Assembly: GCA_963801665.1 (NCBI GenBank)
Contig: CAWDFL010000003.1
Span: 1,757,748 to 1,821,747, forward strand
Direction of reading: 5' to 3'
DNA from: an uncultured delta proteobacterium
Lineage (GTDB): Bacteria; Desulfobacterota; Binatia; Binatales; Binataceae
Length of the DNA stretch: 64,000 nucleotides
The position numbers and the translations under genes were made by a program. The notes beneath the pieces were generated by a model. It did not search any database. It was given only the letters and a program-made list of their open reading frames with translations, and was not told the origin of the DNA. Below are positions 8,279 through 49,111 of this stretch, piece after piece. Position 1 is the stretch's first letter. Each line of letters opens with the position of its first letter.

Positions 8279-8572
8279 TCACGGCATGTTGAAAGCGTCG
8301 CGTGTCTGCAAGTGATCGACCACAGAAACTATTCCGGTGACGCGCAATACCGTCCATCGGATATTCGCGCGGTCCCATTCGGTAGGCACCGTTCCCCACA
8401 GAATCAGCGTGTCTTCCTCGAGCTTGAACTGCACGCCCTTATAGCCCTCCGCGTCGAGCTCGCGCCTGAGCAATTGCAATTGCTCGGGCGTCGCGCCGCC
8501 GTCGAGATCCGGCATCGGGATCGGCATCGGACTCACGTCCGGCGCCAGGCGGCTCCGCGGGCGGCACCGCAA
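8279..8572 (-). CDS. BON-domain ORF overlapping the kinase 3-prime end; a separate small gene or a frameshifted C-terminal extension of the kinase
   Basis: LRRELDAEGYKGVQFKLEEDTLILWGTVPTEWDRANIRWTVLRVTGIVSVVDHLQ resembles a BON domain; the frame is +1 relative to the kinase tail; internal ATGs at 8527 and 8515. Confidence 0.4.
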   Translation of the reverse strand: MRCRPRSRLAPDVSPMPIPMPDLDGGATPEQLQLLRRELDAEGYKGVQFKLEEDTLILWGTVPTEWDRANIRWTVLRVTGIVSVVDHLQTRDAFNMP

Positions 8573-9788
8573 GATGCGCGATCACGCTGGTCAGAAGAAA
8601 CGCGCCACCGAACAGCGCCGCGAGCGCAAGCAGATAAAATCGCGATCCGCGGTTGCGCCGCCTGCCGCGCCGATACTCTCCCGGCATCGGAGCTGGACCG
8701 GGAAAATCGCCAAGGTCGATCGTCCGCGCCTGTGCGGACTCGCGCTCGGCTGTGGGATCTTGATTCAACGGCGCGGCGCAGAACGAGCAGTAGCGCGAGT
8801 CCCCGGGAATCTGCCGGTCGCATCGCGGACACTCAATCGTCGCGAGGTCGGAAAGCACAGTCGGCGCCGAAGGCGACGCTGGCGTGCCCGAGCGTCCAAG
8901 CGGCAGCCGCATCTGCGGGCGCGATTGATTCGTGGCCGGCGCTGGAGCCGGCTGCGGCGCGGTAGCCGCGCGAGGCTCAATCGGCGCTCCGGATTTGATC
9001 GCGATGAGCCGCGTCTTGAATTCGCCGACATCCTGCGGGCGCAAGGCGACGTCGTAATTGAGCGTCTGATCAACCAGGTCGGCCAGCGCGGGATTAACTC
9101 CCGGCGCAGCGCTGCGCAACGGCGGAAAGCTGAACGGAGGCTCCGCGGCAGGATCGCGCCCGGAGATCGCATGATGCATCGTCGCCGCGAGCGCGTAGAG
9201 GTCGGAGCGGAACTCGACTCGCCCGCGATACTGTTCCGGCGGCGCGTAGCCCTGCGTCCCGATCATCGTCGCGTTCTGCATCGGCAGGAAGTGCCGCGCG
9301 ATTCCGAAGTCGATCAGCTTGACCTGTCCATTCGCCGTCAGCATCACGTTCGACGGCTTCAGATCACGGTAGATCACCGGCGGCGAGAGACTGTGCAGGT
9401 AGGCCAGCGTGTCGCAGATCTGAAGCGCGATATCGATCACCTCGCTCTCGGGCAGCTTGCCATCCGCGTCGCGCAACCGGTCCTCAAGGGTCTGGCCCTC
9501 GATATATTCCATCACCAGGTAGTGGCGATTCTGTTCGCTGAAGCGATCGAACACGCGCGGGATATGCTCATTGCTGAGCGTCGCGAGCATGTCGGCCTCG
9601 CGCTGGAACGCGGCGACGGCATCCTGCTGCTTTTCGGGGCTGGTGAAGGTATCGACCATCTCGGCCAGAGCGCACGGGCGTGAGGCGAGGCGCAAATCCT
9701 CCGCCAGGTAGACCATCTTCATTCCGCCGCCGCCGAGCGGACGGATCGCGCGGTAGCGTCCGCCAACGATGGTGTTAGCCGCGATCAT
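8439..9788 (-). CDS. Hanks-type Ser/Thr protein kinase with zinc-ribbon and C-terminal transmembrane segment
   Basis: Kinase motifs GGGGMKMV, VIYRDLKPSNVML, DFGIA, GTQGYAPPE; zinc ribbon CPRCDRQIPGDSRYCSFCAAP; TM FYLLALAALFGGAFLLTSVIAHL; ATG at 9788 is 1 nt after the upstream gene stop. Confidence 0.85.
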   Translation of the reverse strand: MIAANTIVGGRYRAIRPLGGGGMKMVYLAEDLRLASRPCALAEMVDTFTSPEKQQDAVAAFQREADMLATLSNEHIPRVFDRFSEQNRHYLVMEYIEGQTLEDRLRDADGKLPESEVIDIALQICDTLAYLHSLSPPVIYRDLKPSNVMLTANGQVKLIDFGIARHFLPMQNATMIGTQGYAPPEQYRGRVEFRSDLYALAATMHHAISGRDPAAEPPFSFPPLRSAAPGVNPALADLVDQTLNYDVALRPQDVGEFKTRLIAIKSGAPIEPRAATAPQPAPAPATNQSRPQMRLPLGRSGTPASPSAPTVLSDLATIECPRCDRQIPGDSRYCSFCAAPLNQDPTAERESAQARTIDLGDFPGPAPMPGEYRRGRRRNRGSRFYLLALAALFGGAFLLTSVIAHLAVPPAEPPGAGRESDADPDAGSRRRRDARAIAIAQARARRGGL

Positions 9789-9789
9789 C

Positions 9790-10284
9790 TCAGTAGCGCC
9801 ATGTGTCCGAAGGCACCGCAGTGCCGTGGATGCCGCGTCCGCGCCGCCGCGGGCGCGGGCCTGCGATTCGCTCATCGCGCAGCGAGCCCTGCAGGGCAGC
9901 ATTCAACGCGCAAATAAAGTGGAGGATCGGGCCGAGCGGTCCCAGCGCATACGCCAGCATCACGGCGCAGAACCAGACCACGCCGCGCATCACGCGTCCT
10001 TTGTAAATCTGCCCGAGCCCCGGAATCACGCTCAGGACGAAGGCGACGATCGGGTTGAAGCCCGGCTCGCCAGCGAAGGTCTGCGTTCCCGCGACAGGCG
10101 CGCCGCAATCCTTGCAAAACCTCGCCTTGGCAACGACGATCGGCTGGCCGCATCGCGAGCAGAAACGTGGCTGGTCGAATTGCGAATCAGGCACGGAAGG
10201 TAAACGGCGCCTGCCCGAGCCGGAACGAATCGCCGTCGGTGAGAGGCGCCTGCGTGATTCGCCGGTCTGCGACAAAAGTTCCAT
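9790..10284 (-). CDS. Double-zinc-ribbon small membrane protein (start uncertain; GTG at 10194 overlaps the FHA gene stop in a GTGccTGA arrangement)
   Basis: FCSRCGQPIVVAKARFCKDCGAP followed by two TM helices with a PGLGQIYKG motif; stop abuts the kinase start. Confidence 0.55.
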   Translation of the reverse strand: MELLSQTGESRRRLSPTAIRSGSGRRRLPSVPDSQFDQPRFCSRCGQPIVVAKARFCKDCGAPVAGTQTFAGEPGFNPIVAFVLSVIPGLGQIYKGRVMRGVVWFCAVMLAYALGPLGPILHFICALNAALQGSLRDERIAGPRPRRRGRGIHGTAVPSDTWRY

Positions 10285-11464
10285 TCTGGCTGTTTAGATC
10301 TCTAAGTTCGAATCCGCCGCCGGAGCTCACGATACTCGCGTGATGGCGTGAGACCGACGAATGATTCACCACGATGTCGTTGTCCAGCGCGCGGCCAAGG
10401 CTGGTCGCTCCGCTGGCGCGCACGGAATGGCGCTGGCCGGTAGAATCCTCGAGCGCAGGGCCGTTCATCTGCGGACCCGGCGCGGCGACGCGCGACTCGA
10501 TGTGAACCGCCGCCGCGGTTTGCGCTGGAGACACGGAGGCGGCCGAGCCTTGCCGCAGGTGAAACATCAGCTCGTACCCACCGACGCGGATCTTATCGCC
10601 GTCGTGCAGATCCGTGCTCTCGACCCGCTGTCCGTTGACGAACGTCCCGTCCTGGATCGCAAGCCCCTTGAGGACGAAATCCTGGCCGTGCCGTTCAATC
10701 ACAGCGTGGCGCTGTTGCACCGCCGGATCGCCGAACAGCCCGATCGGATTTTCTTCGGCGCGGCCGATGGTGGCGCGCGAGCCCTCGACCCTGAACTGAC
10801 GTCCGCGCAGCCGTCCCTGCTCCACGGTCAGCCACGCGACCTTGGTCAGCTCCTGCACCAGTCCAATAAACAAGCCAATGAAAAATCCGATGAGGCTAAG
10901 CCCGATGAGCCTCGACCACAGTCCTCCGCCGGTGATCTCGTTTATCGGATCGAACAATATCCCGCCGGCGAATCCGCCGATGAATCCGCCGATCGCGCCC
11001 TTGGCGATATTCGGCATCGAGAGCGACGCGAGGCCGACGCCCGCGCCGAGAATCGTGGCCATGATCACCCAGCTCAGCACGCGCCCGAGGAACAGGAAGA
11101 AGCTCGACCCCGGATGCCCGAGGCCCCATCCGCCGAAACTCAAGAGCGCGCTGAAAATATAATTCGAAAAATAATCGGCGGGCAGCGCGAGCAACAGGCA
11201 GACCACGAATCCGCGGATGAGGTTGTTGCGCGTCGTGGGATTCCATTCGATCTCCTGGCTGCCGACCGCAAGGATGAATCCGCCGATCACTCCCGAAAGG
11301 ATCGCCATCGCGACGTAAGACATCGCCGCGTCGAAGCTCGAGATCTGTTCGGTCAGGCTATGCCCGTGGCTCGCGAGCTCGACCGGAAGCCATCCGAGCG
11401 CACCGCCCAAGAGGCCCGCGAGCGCCTTGTTGAAGAGGTCGCGACGATTTATGGAGCTGTTCAT
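10187..11464 (-). CDS. Polytopic membrane protein with two C-terminal FHA domains
   Basis: About 6 predicted TM helices in the N-terminal 220 aa; two FHA-like modules (GRAEENPIGL...VNGQRV and GRALDNDIVV...VSRHHASI...NGTFV). Confidence 0.8.
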   Translation of the reverse strand: MNSSINRRDLFNKALAGLLGGALGWLPVELASHGHSLTEQISSFDAAMSYVAMAILSGVIGGFILAVGSQEIEWNPTTRNNLIRGFVVCLLLALPADYFSNYIFSALLSFGGWGLGHPGSSFFLFLGRVLSWVIMATILGAGVGLASLSMPNIAKGAIGGFIGGFAGGILFDPINEITGGGLWSRLIGLSLIGFFIGLFIGLVQELTKVAWLTVEQGRLRGRQFRVEGSRATIGRAEENPIGLFGDPAVQQRHAVIERHGQDFVLKGLAIQDGTFVNGQRVESTDLHDGDKIRVGGYELMFHLRQGSAASVSPAQTAAAVHIESRVAAPGPQMNGPALEDSTGQRHSVRASGATSLGRALDNDIVVNHSSVSRHHASIVSSGGGFELRDLNSQNGTFVADRRITQAPLTDGDSFRLGQAPFTFRA

Positions 11465-26602: not shown

Positions 26603-27281
26603 AACGAAAAATCGCAAACGAAAGCCTTTGGCGTCTCGCGCCGGTAACGGAACCAGGCGCGCGGTCGTCAGCGTGGCGGGCGACACGCCCCGGCGCTCCG
26701 CCGAGATCGAGCGCAAGACCCGCGAGACGCAGATCGCGCTCGCGCTAAAGCTCGACGGCTCGGGCCGCGGCGAGGTTTCGACCGGAGTTCCGTTCCTCGA
26801 CCACATGCTCGAGAGCTTTGCGCGCCACGGCTTCTTCGACCTCAAGATCGGCGCGCACGGCGATATCGAGATTGATGAGCATCACACGGTCGAGGACGTT
26901 GGGATCGTGCTCGGGCGCGCGTTTCGCCAGGCGCTTGGCGATCGCGCCGGAATCCGCCGCTTCGGCGAGGCGACCGTCCCCCTCGATGAGGCGCTGGTCA
27001 CCGCGGTGGTGGATATCAGCGGGCGCGCCTATCTGGGCTACGAGGTCACGATAACTCAGGAGCGGGTCGGCAATTTCCAGACCGAGCTGGTGCATGATTT
27101 CATGAAAGCGCTCAGCGACGAGACCGGGATGAACCTGCATCTGCGGATGCACTCCGGACGCAACCCGCATCATATCGTCGAGGCGACGTTCAAGGCTCTC
27201 GCGCGCGCGATGGACTCGGCGACCACGCTCGAGCCGCGAGTCGTCGGAGCGTTATCGACCAAGGGCACGCTCGCTTCCTGA
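26595..27281 (+). CDS. hisB: Imidazoleglycerol-phosphate dehydratase
   Basis: IGPD motifs RKTRETQI, DIEIDEHHTVEDVGIVLG, HHIVEATFKALARA; ATG overlaps the hisD stop by 8 nt. Confidence 0.9.
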   Translation: MAETKNRKRKPLASRAGNGTRRAVVSVAGDTPRRSAEIERKTRETQIALALKLDGSGRGEVSTGVPFLDHMLESFARHGFFDLKIGAHGDIEIDEHHTVEDVGIVLGRAFRQALGDRAGIRRFGEATVPLDEALVTAVVDISGRAYLGYEVTITQERVGNFQTELVHDFMKALSDETGMNLHLRMHSGRNPHHIVEATFKALARAMDSATTLEPRVVGALSTKGTLAS

Positions 27282-27284
27282 GCG

Positions 27285-28019
27285 ATGTTCGAGAAGTTCA
27301 CCGTAATTCCCGCGATCGATCTAAAGGGCGGCGAGGTTGTGCGCCTGCTGCGCGGCGATATGGCGCGCGCGACGGTGTATGGCGCCGATCCGGCGGCGGT
27401 GGCGCGCAAGTTTGAGGAGCAGGGCGCCGAGCTGATTCATATCGTCGATCTCGACGGCGCAGTCGCCGGAGCGCCGCGCAACCTGCCCGCGATCGAGCGG
27501 ATCCGCGCGGCCGTAAAATGCGCGATCGACGTGAGCGGAGGGCTGCGCACCATCGAATCGGTGCGCGCCGCGATCTCGTCCGGCGCCGACCGCGTGTCGA
27601 TCGGCTCCGCCGCATTTCTCAACCCCGATCTGGTGCGCAACGCGTGCGCGGAGTTTCCCGGACGCATCTTCGGCTCGCTCGATATCCGCGATGGCAAGCT
27701 GGCGATCAAGGGATGGGTCGAGACGAGCGAACTCACCGTCGAGCGCGCCTGCGCAGTCTTCAAGGACGCGGGCGTGTCGGCCCTGACGGTCACCGATATC
27801 GCGCGTGACGGCGCAGAGACCGGCGTCGACACGGTCAAAATGGCCGCGCTAGCCCACCGAGCAGGACTACCCGTCATCGCCTCGGGGGGAGTCGCCTCTC
27901 TGGCAGACCTGCGAGGGCTGGCCGATCGCTTCAGCGACGGCATGGTTGGAGCAATTGTCGGTCGAGCACTCTATGAAGGGCGCTTCGACCTGCGCTCCGC
28001 GCTCGCTATTTCCCGCTAA
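27285..28019 (+). CDS. hisA: ProFAR isomerase (HisA)
   Basis: VIPAIDLKGGEVVRLLRGD and VDLDGA motifs of the HisA TIM barrel. Confidence 0.85.
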   Translation: MFEKFTVIPAIDLKGGEVVRLLRGDMARATVYGADPAAVARKFEEQGAELIHIVDLDGAVAGAPRNLPAIERIRAAVKCAIDVSGGLRTIESVRAAISSGADRVSIGSAAFLNPDLVRNACAEFPGRIFGSLDIRDGKLAIKGWVETSELTVERACAVFKDAGVSALTVTDIARDGAETGVDTVKMAALAHRAGLPVIASGGVASLADLRGLADRFSDGMVGAIVGRALYEGRFDLRSALAISR

Positions 28020-28392
28020 ATTTCTGCTTCGAGCGCCCGCCTCGGGCTTATAGCCTCGAATCGCATTTTTTTGCGGTCCAGAACTCAAAATCTTTATTAT
28101 ATTCAACTATTTAAGGCACATCGGCGAGTTGTGGGCCGGCCGATTGTTCATAAATCGATCACGCTAATAAGGTCGTCTTAACTGTCTCTGAAGGTTACAG
28201 GACTGTAAAACATATAAGTAAATTATTGACATATCTCTGAGAGTCTTAGAATATATTTACGCATTCAAGAGGAGTTTAGCACCAATAACACGTTAGTAAG
28301 GTCTCCATATCGACCAAAACGCTGGATTAACTTCGCTCGGATAGCATGGGATATACGAAGCGGAAATCGTAGGGACCGGGAGCGCAACCGTG

Positions 28393-28563
28393 ATGGATCT
28401 CATTAGAAGCCTCTATGTTCGAATTTCTGAGAGACCCCGAGGGCAGACGATGAGCGAATACGCCCTGATCGTGGCGGTACTTTCGATCGTAGCTTTCGGA
28501 AGCGTCAAATCGATAGGCAGCACGCTGCACGGCTTGATCAGCAGTGTGGAGGCGTTGCTCTAG
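28393..28563 (+). CDS. flp: Flp/Fap family type IVb pilin (56 aa; below the ORF-track length cutoff)
   Basis: MDLIRSLYVRISERPRG/QTMSEYALIVAVLSIVAF fits the Flp processing motif G-x-T-x-x-EY plus hydrophobic stretch; GGGAG RBS 10 nt upstream; sits in an AT-rich 370-bp leader with a perfect TTGACA -35. Confidence 0.6.
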   Translation: MDLIRSLYVRISERPRGQTMSEYALIVAVLSIVAFGSVKSIGSTLHGLISSVEALL

Positions 28564-28565
28564 AA

Positions 28566-29591
28566 CTACCGCATGACCGAGAATCTTATCGGTCGCAGCC
28601 TGACGGACGGATTCGCGCACATCGGCGGCTTCTTTCCGTTAAAAACCGCGAGAATATTTTCGACCGCCAGCGCAGCCATCCTTTGGCGCGCGGCATAGCT
28701 CGCGCTTCCGATATGGGGCGTGATCACCACGTTTTCCAGCCGCAGCAGAGGATCGTCGCGGCGGATCGGTTCGGGATCGGTCACGTCGATACCCGCACCG
28801 CCCAGATGGCCTGATTTCAGCGCGGGCGCCAGCGCGCGCTGATCGACAACACCTCCGCGCGCGGTGTTGATCAGGATCGCGCCACGCTTCATCCGGCGAA
28901 ATTCCGGCGCGCCCATCAGATGGCGCGTCGCCGCGGTGAGCGGAACGTGCAGCGACACGAAGTCCGACTCCGCGAGCAGCCGACTCATTGTGACGCGCCT
29001 CGCGCCTCCGTCCGGCTTCTCTCCGCGCGTGCGCGAGGATGGCGCTCGCGTGACGTAGAGCACGCGCATCTGGAAGCCCGCCGCGCGCCGGGCTACCGCA
29101 CGTCCGATAGCGCCCCATCCGACGATCCCGAGCGTAGCGCCAAAGACCTCCGGTCCGAGCAGCACGCGCGGTCCCCACGTCTTCCACTTTCCAGCGCGAA
29201 CCTGCCGGTCACCTTCGGCGATACGCCTCGCCGCCGCGAGCATCAGGGCGAACGCGAGGTCCGCGGTCGCCTCGGTCAATACGCCGGGAGTATGGCCGAC
29301 CGCGATCCCCGCGCGCGTGGCGGCCTCAAGATCGATATTGTCCAGTCCGACCGCCAGGTTGCTGACGACTCGCAGCCGCGGCGACGCGGCAAGGAGCGCG
29401 GCGTCGATTCGGTCGGTCACCGTCGTGAGCGCTCCGTCCGCCTCGCGAATCCGGCGGCGGAGCTCGGCGTACGGCGGCGGCATCGGATGAGGCCACAGGT
29501 CGACCCGCGCGTTACGCCGCAAGGCGGCGAGCGCTTCCGGCGCGATCGCTCGGGTAACGAAGACCTTGGGGCGGCGGTGTTTAATCATCAT
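28566..29591 (-). CDS. D-isomer-specific 2-hydroxyacid dehydrogenase (glyoxylate/hydroxypyruvate reductase-like)
   Basis: NAD-binding GIVGWGAIGRAVARR, catalytic His in VITPHIGSAS; stop 3 nt after the convergent flp stop. Confidence 0.85.
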   Translation of the reverse strand: MMIKHRRPKVFVTRAIAPEALAALRRNARVDLWPHPMPPPYAELRRRIREADGALTTVTDRIDAALLAASPRLRVVSNLAVGLDNIDLEAATRAGIAVGHTPGVLTEATADLAFALMLAAARRIAEGDRQVRAGKWKTWGPRVLLGPEVFGATLGIVGWGAIGRAVARRAAGFQMRVLYVTRAPSSRTRGEKPDGGARRVTMSRLLAESDFVSLHVPLTAATRHLMGAPEFRRMKRGAILINTARGGVVDQRALAPALKSGHLGGAGIDVTDPEPIRRDDPLLRLENVVITPHIGSASYAARQRMAALAVENILAVFNGKKPPMCANPSVRLRPIRFSVMR

Positions 29592-39706: not shown

Positions 39707-39928
39707 TCAGCGACGCGGCGCTTTCCGGATCGTCTTCAGGATAAAGATAAAATCCTGCTTGGACAAAATCGACCCGAGCATCGCGAGATGGGACAGCGCT
39801 TCCATCTCCTGATCGGTGATCTTGTGACGCGCGCGCAGTCCCTGGTCGGACTGAAATGACTGCCAGACCTCGCGCCGGAAGGTGGTGTCGCCAGTGGTTT
39901 TCGTCGGTGCGTGATTTTGCGTTGCCAT
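39707..39928 (-). CDS. Small hypothetical protein (73 aa) in an AT-richer patch
   Basis: ATG at 39928 preceded by AGGGGA RBS; the promoter and operator-like palindrome just upstream support it as a real gene. Confidence 0.5.
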   Translation of the reverse strand: MATQNHAPTKTTGDTTFRREVWQSFQSDQGLRARHKITDQEMEALSHLAMLGSILSKQDFIFILKTIRKAPRR

Positions 39929-39950
39929 TTTTCCCCTGCGTATCGAGAAT

Positions 39951-39979
39951 GTTATACTCGATGCAGTTAATTCATGCAA
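39951..39979 (-). promoter_or_regulatory. Sigma70 promoter TTGCAT-17-TATAAC with a palindrome atcgagTATAACattctcgat over the -10
   Basis: Read on the minus strand, about 20 nt upstream of the small gene ATG. Confidence 0.5.
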
Positions 39980-40285
39980 ACAGTTTGAGTGCCTTGTCAT
40001 AACAAAACGTGTCATGCCTGAGCGCGCCCGGCTCAAACGTTCGGCCGAGGCGGAATTCCGGCGAAAATGGCGCGCTGGGCGGAGGCGCCATACCACTTCC
40101 GGCGGAGTCAGATGCGGCCTTCATAGCAAGGACGAACGAGCCGGTGGCATGAACTATTCAGCCTGATTTTCCGGGGTTTATTTCTGTAGCGGCGATGCCA
40201 CTAGCGGCGCGCTGGAGCGTCCGTTAAAACTATATTCTCACGCGGCGCATATCGTGCGCCCCCGAAGAGGACAAGTCGAAGTCAG

Positions 40286-45203: not shown

Positions 45204-46160
45204 ATGATGGAACGCAATCTCGCTCTCGAAGTGGTGCGCGCCACAGAGGCTGCGGCTCTGGCCGCCGCGCGCTTTATCGGCAAAGGCGACGAGCGCACCG
45301 CGGATCGCGCCGCGCAGGACGCGATGCGCAAGACGCTCAACTCGGTCGCGATGGACGGCAAGATCGTCATCGGCGAGGGTACCGCGGACGAAGCCGAGTT
45401 CCTCTATCAGGGCGAGATCGTCGGCAACGGCGCCGGGCCCGAGGTCGATGTCGCGCTCGACGCGCTCGAGGGCTCGCTGATCTGCGCGACCGGCGGTCCC
45501 AACGCGCTGTCGTGCGTCGCGCTGTCGGAGCGCGGCAAGATCCTGCGCTGCCCGGACACTTACATGGACAAGATCGCGGTCGGCCTGGTCGGGCGCGACG
45601 TGGTCGATCTCGATCGTTCGCCGACCGACAATCTCAAAGCGCTGGCCGACGCGAAAAAGGTTTACGTCGAGGATCTGCGCGTCGCGATTCTCGATCGCCC
45701 GCGCCATGAAAAACTGATTGCCGAGGTCCGCCGCGCCGGCGCCGGAATCAAGCTGCTCTCGGCCGGTGACCTTTCCGCCGCGATCGCGACCACTCGGCCC
45801 GAAAGCGAGATCGACATGCTGATCGGCGTCGGCGGAGCGCATCAGGGCGTGCTGGCCGCGGCCGCGATCCGCTCGGTCGGCGGGCAGATGCAGTGCCGCT
45901 TCGTGCCGCGCAATCCGCAGGAGGCCGAAGAGTGCCTCGGGATGGGGATAATGGACTTAAAGCGCCGCTACACGCTCGAGGAGCTGGCGGGCGATAACGT
46001 GATGTTCGCGGCGACGGGTGTTACTACCGGCGATTATTTGCGCGGGGTGCGATTCTTCTCCGGCGGCGCGATGACCAACAGCGTCGTGATGCGCTCGACC
46101 ACGCGCACGGCGCGCTTTATCGAGGCGATTCATCATTTCGATTTCAAGCCGGAATACTAA
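45204..46160 (+). CDS. glpX: Fructose-1,6-bisphosphatase class II
   Basis: Full-length GlpX conservation (MERNLALEVVRATEAAALAAARFIGKGDE..., DALEGS). Confidence 0.9.
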   Translation: MMERNLALEVVRATEAAALAAARFIGKGDERTADRAAQDAMRKTLNSVAMDGKIVIGEGTADEAEFLYQGEIVGNGAGPEVDVALDALEGSLICATGGPNALSCVALSERGKILRCPDTYMDKIAVGLVGRDVVDLDRSPTDNLKALADAKKVYVEDLRVAILDRPRHEKLIAEVRRAGAGIKLLSAGDLSAAIATTRPESEIDMLIGVGGAHQGVLAAAAIRSVGGQMQCRFVPRNPQEAEECLGMGIMDLKRRYTLEELAGDNVMFAATGVTTGDYLRGVRFFSGGAMTNSVVMRSTTRTARFIEAIHHFDFKPEY

Positions 46161-46189: not shown

Positions 46190-46630
46190 ATGAAACGGAT
46201 TTTTTCATCGGTGATCAAACCGATCACTGGAGTCTTCGTTCTGGCGGTGATCTTCGCGGCATGCAGTGCGGCCGGTACCGCGAAACAGAACGACGCCAAG
46301 ATCGGCTGCAAGTTCGACGCGCAGAAGGCCTGTCAGGGCGCTCTAACCGCTCCGCTTACCACCTCTACCGGCTTCACCACCAGCAACCAGAGCTACATCA
46401 CGCAGAATAGCTCCACGACAACCTGGGTGATGGTGCCGGTCAAAGCGCCTGGCGGTTCCGAGGTCGATGTGCAGTGCCAGCTTAACTATGCCAAAAAGCA
46501 GGTCATCTACGCCTATCCGACCGCGAGCGGCACTGTCTCCGACAGCGATCAGCAATGGTTTCATCAGACCGGCATGTGCATCGGGACCGAGGGCACCGAA
46601 GCTGCGCCCAAACTTGGCGCACAGGAATAA
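46190..46630 (+). CDS. Lipoprotein of unknown function
   Basis: Signal peptide and lipobox IFAAC; Ser/Thr-rich mature region; lower-GC codon usage. Confidence 0.55.
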   Translation: MKRIFSSVIKPITGVFVLAVIFAACSAAGTAKQNDAKIGCKFDAQKACQGALTAPLTTSTGFTTSNQSYITQNSSTTTWVMVPVKAPGGSEVDVQCQLNYAKKQVIYAYPTASGTVSDSDQQWFHQTGMCIGTEGTEAAPKLGAQE

Positions 46631-46716
46631 CCAGGCGTTTCCAGGATGATCGCTGACTGGCTAATCCTGAGATTGCACAACCTCATTCACCTAAAGACAA
46701 GCGAGGATAGGCCAGG

Positions 46717-46902
46717 ATGTGGACTCAATTTACTATTGATGGAAAGACCATTCTGGTGAACATGGCGATGGTCTCGCATGTGGTCGAATTGGCTGAGGGA
46801 CAGCGTGGGTGCAAGCTCTTCATGTCGGCGGACAATTTCTTGATCGTCGATCAAGTGATGCGCGAAGTGATGACGAGGCTCGGAATCGATCCGCGCACCT
46901 GA
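46717..46902 (+). CDS. Small hypothetical protein (61 aa)
   Basis: ORF with AGGA RBS, no signal peptide, inside the lower-GC islet. Confidence 0.35.
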   Translation: MWTQFTIDGKTILVNMAMVSHVVELAEGQRGCKLFMSADNFLIVDQVMREVMTRLGIDPRT

Positions 46903-47053
46903 ATTTTCATCCGCTTGCAGAAAATTGATAGTCAGTACGGCCCGCCAGTGCTATCGTCCGAAAATACTTTTGGCCGGGAGCGAAAAGGGGGGCTGTTTGA
47001 GTTATTCAAAAGAGGTGACGGTTCGCGATTCCGCTAGTAACGCTGATGAGCAG

Positions 47054-48279
47054 GTGACGCGCCGGGTCAGGACGGTGAGTTGCCTTATCTCACTGCTTCT
47101 CCTTCTCCTATCTGGATGCGGCGGCGGATCAGGATCGGGCTCAAGTTCGCCGTCCGCTGGTATCGTTCACTTCGTTCCTAATTCACATGCTTTCTGGAGC
47201 AAGCAGGCCAACTGGACGACTGGCTTCGGTCCCGCATACGCCGACATCACGACAGCCAGTTCCAACTTTCTGCCCTGCAGAGGCGGGCCGTTCGCGCTCT
47301 GCTACTATTCGGGTCCTAGCAGCGGCAACGAAGACCTGTCGTGCACGCTGACCGCCGATGGCAAATACGCCAACTGCCGATGCTACGAAATTCCGTACGG
47401 CGTGTACTTCGTGGATATAAACGCGATCCTGAATCGATCGGTCTATCAGGACACGGTCGCCACCTGCGGTGCGGACGGCAGCCTGTGCGGAAAGATGAAC
47501 TCGGCGCCGGTGTGCCAGTCGGTCAACCAGGGAACCCTGATTCCCGGCACCGGAGTTTACTCGACCTTCAGTTTTGATTGCGTGCCTACCGACGGAATCG
47601 GCGTAACCAATTGTTCCACCTCGCAGTACGCCGGATGCATGACGGCGCCGTGCTTCAAGACCGGCCAGCCGCAAATTGATAGCTGCTCGTGCCCGGTCTT
47701 CAACGGCCCTTATCAGGTTGGGACGAACAACCAGGCCTGCACCCTCGGCGACGATCTCGTCTGGTCGGCCGCGTACGCTCCTCCCAGCGCCACACCAACC
47801 CTGCAGCGACTTTTATGGCGCCGCCGAAAGTGGTGCAGGCCGCCGCAGCGGTCCCGAGTCCCGGAGCCTGCCTGCCGGATGCACCCGGAGGATACGGTTG
47901 CCCGCTCTATGTCCCCGGAACCACGGTCCTGCCGCCCAATAGCGGCGTCGACTGCTCGGTGGTCTGCTCCGAATACAATACCTGCCAGCAAAAGGGTGGG
48001 GTCGAGACCGGCTACACCTGCGACGCGACGCTCTGCACCGATCAATGTAATGACCGCGATCTGCTCGGGACCGCATGCTCGAATCTCGCGAAGTGCGATG
48101 TTTCGGAAATTATCAAAGCCGAAACCGCCGCCAGTTGCAGTTGCTGCGCGAGCCAGCTCTGCAATTGCGATTCGAACTCGCAGACCAATTCGGTGATTGC
48201 CACGCTCAACCAGCAGCAGCGCGATCGGGGTATCGTCCCGCAATGCGACGTTAACGGCACGCTCTGCGGCACGCCCTGA
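47054..48279 (+). pseudogene. Cys-rich secreted lipoprotein interrupted by a frame change near 47780-47830 (or two adjacent Cys-rich genes)
   Basis: GTG start gives MTRRVRTVSCLISLLLLLLSGC lipoprotein signal; many Cys patterns (CRCYEIPYG, CSCPVFNG); the Cys-rich sequence continues in ORF 47689..48279 (CSEYNTCQQKGG..., CSCCASQLCNCDSNS). Confidence 0.5.

Positions 48280-48331: not shown

Positions 48332-49111
<780 letters not shown>

What the first reader, a model, noticed from the sequence alone, without database searches (positions are those of the whole stretch)
46190..48279. Lower-GC islet encoding a lipoprotein, a 61-aa cytoplasmic protein and a large Cys-rich lipoprotein
Three co-oriented genes between glpX and the acyl-CoA operon have visibly lower GC. 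The first and third products carry clean lipoprotein signals (IFAAC; LLLLLLSGC after a GTG start). The third is packed with Cys in CxC/CSC/CSCC patterns across two reading frames, from a frameshift or two genes. The layout resembles a horizontally acquired surface-protein or toxin-immunity-like module. None of the three products was assigned to a family.
Basis: seen in the sequence. Interest (0 to 1): 0.5.

Follow-up and report, generated by a model that had tools for sequence, protein, structure and literature searches.

The report
Three Binataceae-specific genes; one frame-broken lipoprotein
The "islet" is three genes found mainly in the soil bacterial family Binataceae, not imported DNA or a toxin–immunity pair. 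The large cysteine-rich "two-frame" product is one gene broken by a single missing C, and it belongs to a widespread secreted protein family that nobody has characterised.

Summary
Three co-oriented genes lie between glpX and an enoyl-CoA hydratase/acyl-CoA dehydrogenase/methylmalonyl-CoA mutase cluster. This stretch has the lowest GC in the window (0.582 vs 0.633).

- **ORF1** (46190-46630) and **ORF3** carry lipoboxes. **ORF2** (46717-46902) is a 61-aa protein with no signal peptide.
- **ORF3 is one gene** (47054-48279). A single C is missing from a C-run at 47799-47801, in the linker between its two domains. A 99.5 % identical allele from another metagenome is intact, as are more than 1,400 homologue clusters. 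An assembly error is more likely than a real mutation, but I could not show this.
- **The GC dip** comes from amino-acid composition and AT-richer spacers. Synonymous codon usage is normal (z -0.8 to -1.2).
- **No mobile-element marks** were found. All three genes are under purifying selection.
- **ORF3 occurs without ORF1 or ORF2** in about 70 of 77 related loci, so horizontal acquisition and a toxin–immunity module are not supported.

The parts
46190..46630 (+). ORF1: 146-aa small lipoprotein (lipobox F-A-A-C at nt 46253-46264; four more conserved Cys). Its family was found only in Binataceae.
46631..46716 (.). Spacer between ORF1 and ORF2, GC 0.52; contributes to the GC dip.
46717..46902 (+). 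ORF2: 61-aa protein without a signal peptide, function unknown, conserved in a subset of Binataceae.
   Evidence: ORF. 10 homologue clusters, 70-100 % identical, nine of them exactly 61 aa and one a 44-aa fragment. dN/dS 0.08-0.14. No Pfam, NCBIfam, PADLOC or PHROGs match.
46903..47053 (.). Spacer upstream of ORF3, GC 0.50. It holds six of the seven indels between the window and the near-identical contig L094.
47054..48279 (+). ORF3: a single gene for a 408-aa cysteine-rich two-domain lipoprotein precursor, read in two frames here because one base is missing. The GTG at 47054 is the most plausible start; 47015 and 47075 are alternatives.
   Evidence: Adding one C gives an uninterrupted 408-aa product with 34 Cys. 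More than 1,400 homologue clusters hit it; the best 120 are 376-460 aa, cover at least 91 % of it and are 65-89 % identical. An intact 99.5 % identical allele, P0354/L094, exists. The source's own annotation calls only the last 154 aa (P0359). dN/dS 0.03-0.12.
47108..47119 (+). ORF3 lipobox L-S-G-C, followed by the Gly/Ser-rich tether GGGSGSGSSSPS.
   Evidence: Sequence. 114 of 139 full-length family members have a lipobox by pattern; divergent members have ordinary signal peptides instead.
47174..47800 (+). ORF3 N-terminal domain (about aa 41-249): mixed alpha/beta, 14 family-wide conserved Cys plus one found mainly in Binataceae, with the signature YAGCMTAPC.
   Evidence: AF2 model of P0001, pLDDT above 90 over this part. 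Cys conservation. This domain also occurs alone and fused to other modules.
47799..47801 (+). Frameshift site: a CCC run where intact alleles carry four bases (ACC CCN GCA = Thr-Pro-Ala). It lies in the Pro/Ala/Thr-rich interdomain linker.
   Evidence: Protein comparison with P0001 and P0002. DNA alignment A2. It is the only coding indel in 3.7 kb against L094.
47848..48279 (+). ORF3 C-terminal domain (about aa 266-408, frame B) with its stop codon: helical, 17 Cys, signature CSCCASQLCxC, no His.
   Evidence: AF2 secondary structure and pLDDT. Cys map. This is the stretch annotated at source as a separate 154-aa protein, P0359.

Best explanation
The region holds three vertically inherited genes, in a genome whose closest named relatives are Candidatus Binataceae. 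They sit in a gap between glpX and the ECH/ACAD/MCM cluster that carries different genes in different relatives.

**Shown**
- ORF1 is a small lipoprotein, ORF2 is a 61-aa protein of unknown role, and ORF3 is one gene.
- ORF3's two-frame appearance comes from one missing C in a C-run in the interdomain linker. I judge an assembly error about twice as likely as a real, very recent mutation.

**Inferred for ORF3**
- It is exported by Sec and lipid-modified at the LSGC cysteine through the standard Lgt/LspA pathway.
- It hangs from the membrane on a Gly/Ser tether.
- Its 32 remaining cysteines form about 16 disulfides. Parity suggests one bridges the two domains.
- The result would be a rigid envelope or surface protein that binds something or has a structural role, rather than catalysing a reaction. 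No conserved His, Asp or Glu is present in the N-domain. I put this functional reading at about 0.5.
For: - **Single gene.** The repaired ORF is 408 aa. It matches more than 1,400 homologue clusters; the best 120 cover at least 91 % of it. An intact 99.5 % identical allele exists.
- **Lineage.** ORF1 has 58 clusters and ORF2 has 10; every named one is Binataceae. ORF3 gave 352 hits among GTDB species genomes, and nearly all of the top 80 are Binataceae/Binatia or MAGs deposited as 'uncultured delta proteobacterium'.
- **Purifying selection** on all three genes.
- **Normal codon usage**.
- **Variable gap.** glpX-ORF1-GIY-YIG-ECH in L005. glpX-ORF1-ORF1 paralogue-ORF2-ECH in L095. glpX-ORF1-ORF3-ECH in L031 and the full trio in L004 and L008-L010. 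Elsewhere ORF3 usually stands alone beside pheA/hisC/tyrA and glyoxalase/accA/miaA/mutL.
- **Export.** Lipoboxes in Binataceae members and ordinary signal peptides in divergent ones.
- **Extracellular setting.** Rare fusions to a C-type lectin, FIMAH, an IPTL-CTERM sorting motif and DJ-1/PfpI.
- **Structure.** The model is confident (pLDDT 85, pTM 0.80). Cys are conserved while no acidic or His residue is conserved in the N-domain.
Against: - Function is inferred only from sequence features. There is no operon partner, no family match and no structural neighbour.
- Disulfide bonding was not checked on coordinates. A thiolate metal site cannot be excluded.
- No reads were available, so error versus real mutation at the C-run is open. 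The other genes tested in the window look intact, so this assembly is not riddled with indels.
- ORF1 shows much higher synonymous divergence than its flanks (dS 1.3-1.8 vs 0.35-0.6). Some exchange of alleles between Binataceae lineages at this site is therefore possible.
- The AlphaFold-database fold library was unavailable.
Confidence: 0.75

Rival explanations
1. This is a horizontally acquired islet encoding a surface-protein or toxin–immunity module. ORF3 would be a secreted toxin or effector, and ORF2 or ORF1 its immunity or partner protein.
For: - Lowest GC in the window.
- The gap content varies between genomes.
- ORF1 and ORF3 diverge faster than the flanking genes.
Against: - Codon usage is normal.
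- No tRNA, Rfam element, flanking repeat, plasmid or virus link.
- Close homologues are confined to the same bacterial family.
- ORF3 stands alone in about 70 of 77 loci.
- No toxin, immunity or defence profile matches.
Confidence: 0.04
2. The frameshift is genuine. In this strain ORF3 is a recent pseudogene, or is expressed as an N-domain lipoprotein with a junk tail plus a separate cytoplasmic 154-aa C-terminal fragment.
For: - The other genes checked in the window are intact, so the assembly is not generally error-prone.
- The source annotation calls the 154-aa piece as a gene.
- The break falls in a linker, where a split is structurally tolerable.
Against: - An intact allele exists at 99.5 % identity, with dN/dS 0.03.
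- The lesion is a one-base loss in a homopolymer, a known long-read error type (PMC9262707, abstract seen).
- A sister MAG contig (L004, ERZ25039457) shows broken housekeeping genes: glpX is split and apgM truncated.
- The C-terminal piece alone has no signal peptide, yet it needs oxidative folding for its 17 Cys.
Confidence: 0.3
3. ORF3 is a metal-thiolate protein (Cu(I), Zn or Cd storage or buffering). It would be functionally like the copper storage proteins of methanotrophs or like metallothioneins, with many cysteines as free ligands rather than disulfides.
For: - 8 % Cys, with CxC, CSCC and CxC clusters concentrated in a helical C-domain.
- From my own knowledge, not tested here: Binatia genomes have been reported to encode methylotrophy and alkane-oxidation pathways.
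Against: - Sec/lipoprotein export, with no consistent twin-arginine motif, delivers an unfolded chain to an oxidising compartment.
- The Cys count is even and the Cys are conserved as a set.
- The model is a confident, ordinary globular fold.
- No conserved His or Met clusters.
Confidence: 0.08
4. The product comes from two separate overlapping genes, or from programmed ribosomal frameshifting.
For: - An ATG at 47815 opens frame B.
- The source annotation treats that frame as a gene.
Against: - The best 120 homologue clusters encode both halves in one frame, without a slippery-site requirement.
- Frame A after 47801 is an Arg-rich nonsense tail with no homologues.
Confidence: 0.02

Closest known systems
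Generic bacterial lipoproteins (substrates of the Lgt/LspA/Lnt pathway)
   Same: ORF1 and ORF3 have a positively charged n-region, a hydrophobic h-region and a lipobox ending in Cys. ORF3 follows it with a flexible Gly/Ser tether.
   Different: The mature parts match no described lipoprotein family. ORF3 carries 32 further cysteines, which is unusual for a bacterial lipoprotein. Divergent family members use ordinary signal peptides, so the lipid anchor is a lineage feature and not a family feature.
Copper storage proteins (Csp1/Csp3) and metallothionein-type Cys-rich proteins
   Same: High cysteine content, with clustered Cys motifs in a helical region of an exported protein.
   Different: No sequence or fold similarity. 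ORF3 has a Sec/lipoprotein signal, which differs from the Tat signal I recall for Csp1 (my own knowledge). The even, conserved Cys set fits disulfides. A large alpha/beta N-domain is present.
Polymorphic toxin–immunity modules (CDI, Rhs and T6SS effector/immunity pairs)
   Same: Only the layout: an exported large protein next to a small protein without a signal peptide, in a spot whose content varies.
   Different: No toxin, immunity or delivery domain. The small gene lies upstream rather than downstream. The genes do not travel together. ORF3 is under strong purifying selection as a conserved stand-alone gene.
Disulfide-rich secreted modules of the kind common in eukaryotes (here, a C-type-lectin-fused relative)
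   Same: About 4 disulfides per 100 residues. Relatives include a haptophyte proteome entry, and the N-domain is found fused to a C-type lectin domain.
   Different: No match to any Pfam cysteine-rich module. Most of the family is bacterial.

Membership tests
Bacterial lipoprotein (ORF1, ORF3) | N-terminal signal peptide ending in a lipobox [LVI(F)][ASTVI][GAS]C | tested here: met
   ORF1 has ...VLAVIFAAC and ORF3 has ...LLLLLLSGC. The Cys is conserved in at least 90 % of ORF1 homologues. A lipobox pattern is present in 114 of 139 full-length ORF3 relatives. This is pattern-based only; no dedicated predictor was available.
Bacterial lipoprotein (ORF1, ORF3) | Actual diacylglyceryl modification and signal peptidase II cleavage | not testable with these tools
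   Needs biochemistry or proteomics.
Horizontally acquired genomic islet | Synonymous codon usage or GC3 foreign to the host genome | tested here: not met
   Codon score z = -0.8, -1.2 and -0.8 against 48 window genes. GC3 0.68-0.73 against 0.764 (sd 0.047).
Horizontally acquired genomic islet | Mobility marks: tRNA target, integrase or transposase, flanking direct repeats | tested here: not met
   No tRNA, no Rfam element, only short chance repeats, and neighbours are metabolic genes.
Horizontally acquired genomic islet | Closest relatives in other lineages, or on plasmids or phages | tested here: not met
   Closest relatives are all Binataceae. No plasmid hit and no viral hit.
Horizontally acquired genomic islet | Presence or absence varies at the same site among relatives | tested here: met
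   The gap content differs among L005, L031, L095 and the L004/L008-L010 group. This shows rearrangement within the family, not import from outside.
Toxin–immunity module | Recognisable toxin, immunity or delivery domain | tested here: not met
Toxin–immunity module | Obligate co-occurrence of the two partners | tested here: not met
   ORF2 lies next to ORF3 in only 4 of the 80 GTDB loci, plus L004 and L094. ORF1 lies next to it in 5 of the 80. ORF1 and ORF2 also occur without ORF3.
Programmed frameshift gene | The frame change is conserved in orthologues at a slippery site | tested here: not met
   Orthologues are in frame (ACC CCN GCA).
Copper storage protein / metallothionein | Sequence or fold similarity to Csp-type four-helix bundles or metallothionein | tested here: not met
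Copper storage protein / metallothionein | Free thiolate ligands binding metal | not testable with these tools
   Needs purified protein.

The most novel reading that the evidence does not exclude
ORF3 represents an undescribed two-domain, roughly 16-disulfide fold family with no Pfam or NCBIfam model and no PDB neighbour. It is conserved across Binataceae, scattered in other bacteria, and present in at least one microbial eukaryote lineage. Its N-domain is a portable extracellular module. The function would be a new kind of envelope or surface binding activity.
Probability: 0.45. Interest if true: 0.5.

Novelty: new member of a known kind. Interest (0 to 1): 0.3.

Why it matters
- **Genome annotation.** The source record calls only a 154-aa fragment of a 408-aa gene. 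The repair is a single base.
- **Biology.** ORF3 belongs to a large family of secreted cysteine-rich proteins with no name, no model and no structural relative. The family has more than 1,400 clusters at 90 % identity and 338 at 50 %. It is well conserved in an abundant but uncultured soil lineage. It is a reasonable target for structural genomics or metaproteomics.
- **What it is not.** Nothing here points to a new mechanism or system.

Tried and rejected
- **Profile libraries.** Pfam, NCBIfam, PADLOC and PHROGs scans of all three products found nothing. Pfam scans of 200 family members found only rare fusions.
- **Mobile elements.** No viral relative and no plasmid match. Searches for tRNA, Rfam elements, repeats, promoters and terminators around the region were uninformative.
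- **Neighbourhood analysis.** 77 ORF3 loci and two distant loci showed no conserved partner.
- **Literature.** Searches on Binatia with lipoprotein or cysteine-rich terms found nothing relevant.
- **Methylation idea.** The deletion abuts a CTGCAG site, which could in principle cause a methylation-linked basecalling error. The site count is as expected by chance (16 vs 12.7, sd 3.45), so this was dropped.
- **Assembly quality.** Other overlapping ORF pairs in the window are not split genes.

Full report
**1. What is in the sequence**

Between glpX (45204-46160) and an enoyl-CoA hydratase gene (48332-49111) lie three co-oriented reading frames:
- ORF1, 46190-46630, 146 aa.
- ORF2, 46717-46902, 61 aa.
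- A third product spread over two frames.

The segment 46190-48279 has GC 0.582, against 0.633 for the window. It is the lowest 2-kb bin, and only 0.3 % of same-size windows are as low. ORF1 begins MKRIFSSVIKPITGVFVLAVIFAAC. The third product begins, from a GTG at 47054, MTRRVRTVSCLISLLLLLLSGC, followed by GGGSGSGSSSPS. Both are lipobox-type signals.

**2. The frame junction**

I joined the two frames and searched with the result. It hit more than 1,400 protein clusters. The best 120 are 376-460 aa long, 65-89 % identical, and cover at least 91 % of the joined product. Those carrying a name are called hypothetical proteins of Candidatus Binatus or Binataceae.

The closest relatives read ...SATPTPAATF... 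across the junction. The window has ACC-CTG-CAG where they have ACC-CCN-GCA. One C is missing from a C-run at 47799-47801 (DNA alignment). Adding it back gives an uninterrupted 408-aa product with 34 Cys.

An independent metagenome contig (L094, JGI 3300078425) is 97.3 % identical in DNA over 3.7 kb. Its intact allele is 99.5 % identical in protein. The C-run is the only coding indel between the two sequences; the other six indels all lie in the spacer upstream of ORF3. The source's own annotation calls only the last 154 aa as a gene (P0359, on the 1,882,407-bp contig).

So ORF3 is one gene, not two, and not a programmed frameshift. The break falls in the Pro/Ala/Thr-rich linker between the two domains, which has low pLDDT in the model.

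I could not decide whether the missing base is an assembly error or a recent mutation.
- For an error: it is a homopolymer loss. The closest large genome contigs come from a long-read Nanopore soil MAG project. A sister MAG contig (L004) has broken glpX and apgM genes.
- For a real mutation: the other genes I checked in this window are intact.

I put it at about 2:1 for error.

**3. Is it a foreign islet?**

The GC dip is real, but it is not a codon-usage signal.
- GC3 of the three genes is 0.68-0.73, against a window mean of 0.764 with sd 0.047.
- A synonymous-codon likelihood score, corrected for amino-acid content, gives z = -0.8, -1.2 and -0.8 against 48 window genes.
- The dip comes from codon positions 1 and 2. 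The products are rich in S/T/N/Q/C and poor in R/A/L. The two spacers have GC of 0.50-0.52.

Other evidence also points away from import:
- No tRNA, Rfam element or flanking repeat is present.
- No homologue was found on plasmids or viral contigs.
- Named homologues of ORF1 (58 clusters) and ORF2 (10 clusters) are all Binataceae.
- All three genes are under purifying selection, with dN/dS 0.03-0.29, similar to the flanking metabolic genes.

The gap itself does vary between genomes:

| Loci | Content between glpX and ECH |
|---|---|
| L004, L008, L009, L010 | ORF1, ORF2, ORF3 (full trio) |
| L031 | ORF1, ORF3 |
| L005 | ORF1, GIY-YIG gene |
| L095-L097 | ORF1, ORF1 paralogue, ORF2 (ORF3 is on another contig of the same MAG as L095) |

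L094 carries ORF2 (partial), ORF3 and ECH, then reaches its contig end. L071 starts inside ORF3 and continues into ECH, ACAD and MCM.

In most other genomes ORF3 stands alone among housekeeping genes. In 25 of 77 loci it lies next to pheA/hisC/tyrA on one side and glyoxalase/accA/miaA/mutL on the other. This shows gene reshuffling within the family, not acquisition from outside. It also shows that the three genes are not an obligate module, which argues against a toxin–immunity pair. No toxin, immunity or defence profile matches either.

**4. What ORF3 is**

The family is large. It has 338 cluster representatives at 50 % identity. It gave 352 hits among GTDB species genomes; nearly all of the top 80 are Binataceae/Binatia or MAGs deposited as 'uncultured delta proteobacterium'. 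Divergent members occur as stand-alone genes in other bacteria.

An AlphaFold2 model of the closest intact relative is confident (pLDDT 85, pTM 0.80). It shows a mixed alpha/beta N-domain and a helical C-domain joined by a disordered linker.
- The N-domain has 14 family-wide conserved Cys plus one found mainly in Binataceae.
- The C-domain has 17 Cys.
- That makes 32 in the mature Binataceae protein. Both domain counts are odd, which suggests one interdomain bridge.
- No His, Asp or Glu is conserved in the N-domain.

Nothing known matches it:
- Pfam and NCBIfam: no hit.
- PDB sequence profile: 0 hits.
- Foldseek: best E-value 0.59.

Each domain can occur alone. The N-domain is occasionally fused to a C-type lectin or a DJ-1/PfpI domain, and other family members carry a FIMAH domain or an IPTL-CTERM sorting signal. 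Binataceae members have lipoboxes, while divergent ones have ordinary signal peptides.

All of this fits an exported, disulfide-stabilised envelope or surface protein with a binding or structural role. It is an inference from sequence features only, and I give it about 0.5. A metal-thiolate role is less likely because of the Sec export route and the even, conserved Cys set, but it is not excluded.

**5. ORF1 and ORF2**

ORF2 is conserved: nine of its ten homologue clusters are exactly 61 aa, and identity is 70-100 %. It has no signal peptide and matches no family. I have no functional lead for it.

**6. Verdict**

The frameshift reading is right. The horizontal-transfer and toxin–immunity reading is not supported. 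The region is ordinary lineage-specific gene content plus a one-base lesion. Its one point of interest is that ORF3 belongs to a large, conserved, entirely uncharacterised family of cysteine-rich secreted proteins with no structural relative among solved structures.

Noticed in passing
window 46190-46630 compared with L009, L008 and L004: ORF1's synonymous divergence from close relatives (dS 1.3-1.8) is about three times that of the flanking glpX, ECH, ACAD and MCM genes (0.35-0.6), although dN/dS stays low. This suggests old alleles exchanged by recombination at this site, or locally faster evolution.
   Followed up: partly
L095 4065-4960 (also L096 and L097): ORF1 has a tandem paralogue (148 aa, same Cys pattern) in some Binataceae genomes. 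There ORF2 follows it directly and ORF3 is absent from the locus.
   Followed up: yes
L090-L093; proteins P0266 and P0345: A 386-400-aa ORF3 relative is listed in the EukProt proteome of the haptophyte Diacronema (Pavlova) lutheri. It sits on contigs with low coding density and no prokaryote-like neighbours. This may reflect transfer between bacteria and eukaryotes, or contamination.
   Followed up: partly
proteins P0263 and P0333, plus unidentified members of alignment A4: The ORF3 N-domain occurs on its own and in fusions: a C-type lectin followed by the N-domain, and the N-domain followed by DJ-1/PfpI. Single members of alignment A4 also hit FIMAH and IPTL-CTERM models.
   Followed up: partly
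L004 5736-7150: In a sister MAG contig (ERZ25039457 contig_72926) the housekeeping genes apgM and glpX are truncated or split into pieces. This points to indel errors in that assembly and bears on how to read the window's frameshift.
   Followed up: no
L067 and L085 (both from Centralia_MAG_399): One MAG carries two diverged ORF3 copies, 65 % and 54 % identical to the query P0001, on different contigs.
   Followed up: no
window 8439-11464, minus strand: A Ser/Thr protein kinase gene and a gene with two FHA domains lie close together, with an unassigned 164-aa ORF between them.
   Followed up: no
window 39707-40096, minus strand, and the 27001-29000 bin: These are the other low-GC spots in the window: a 129-aa ORF with GC 0.559 and GC3 0.646, and a 2-kb bin with GC 0.599.
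   Followed up: no
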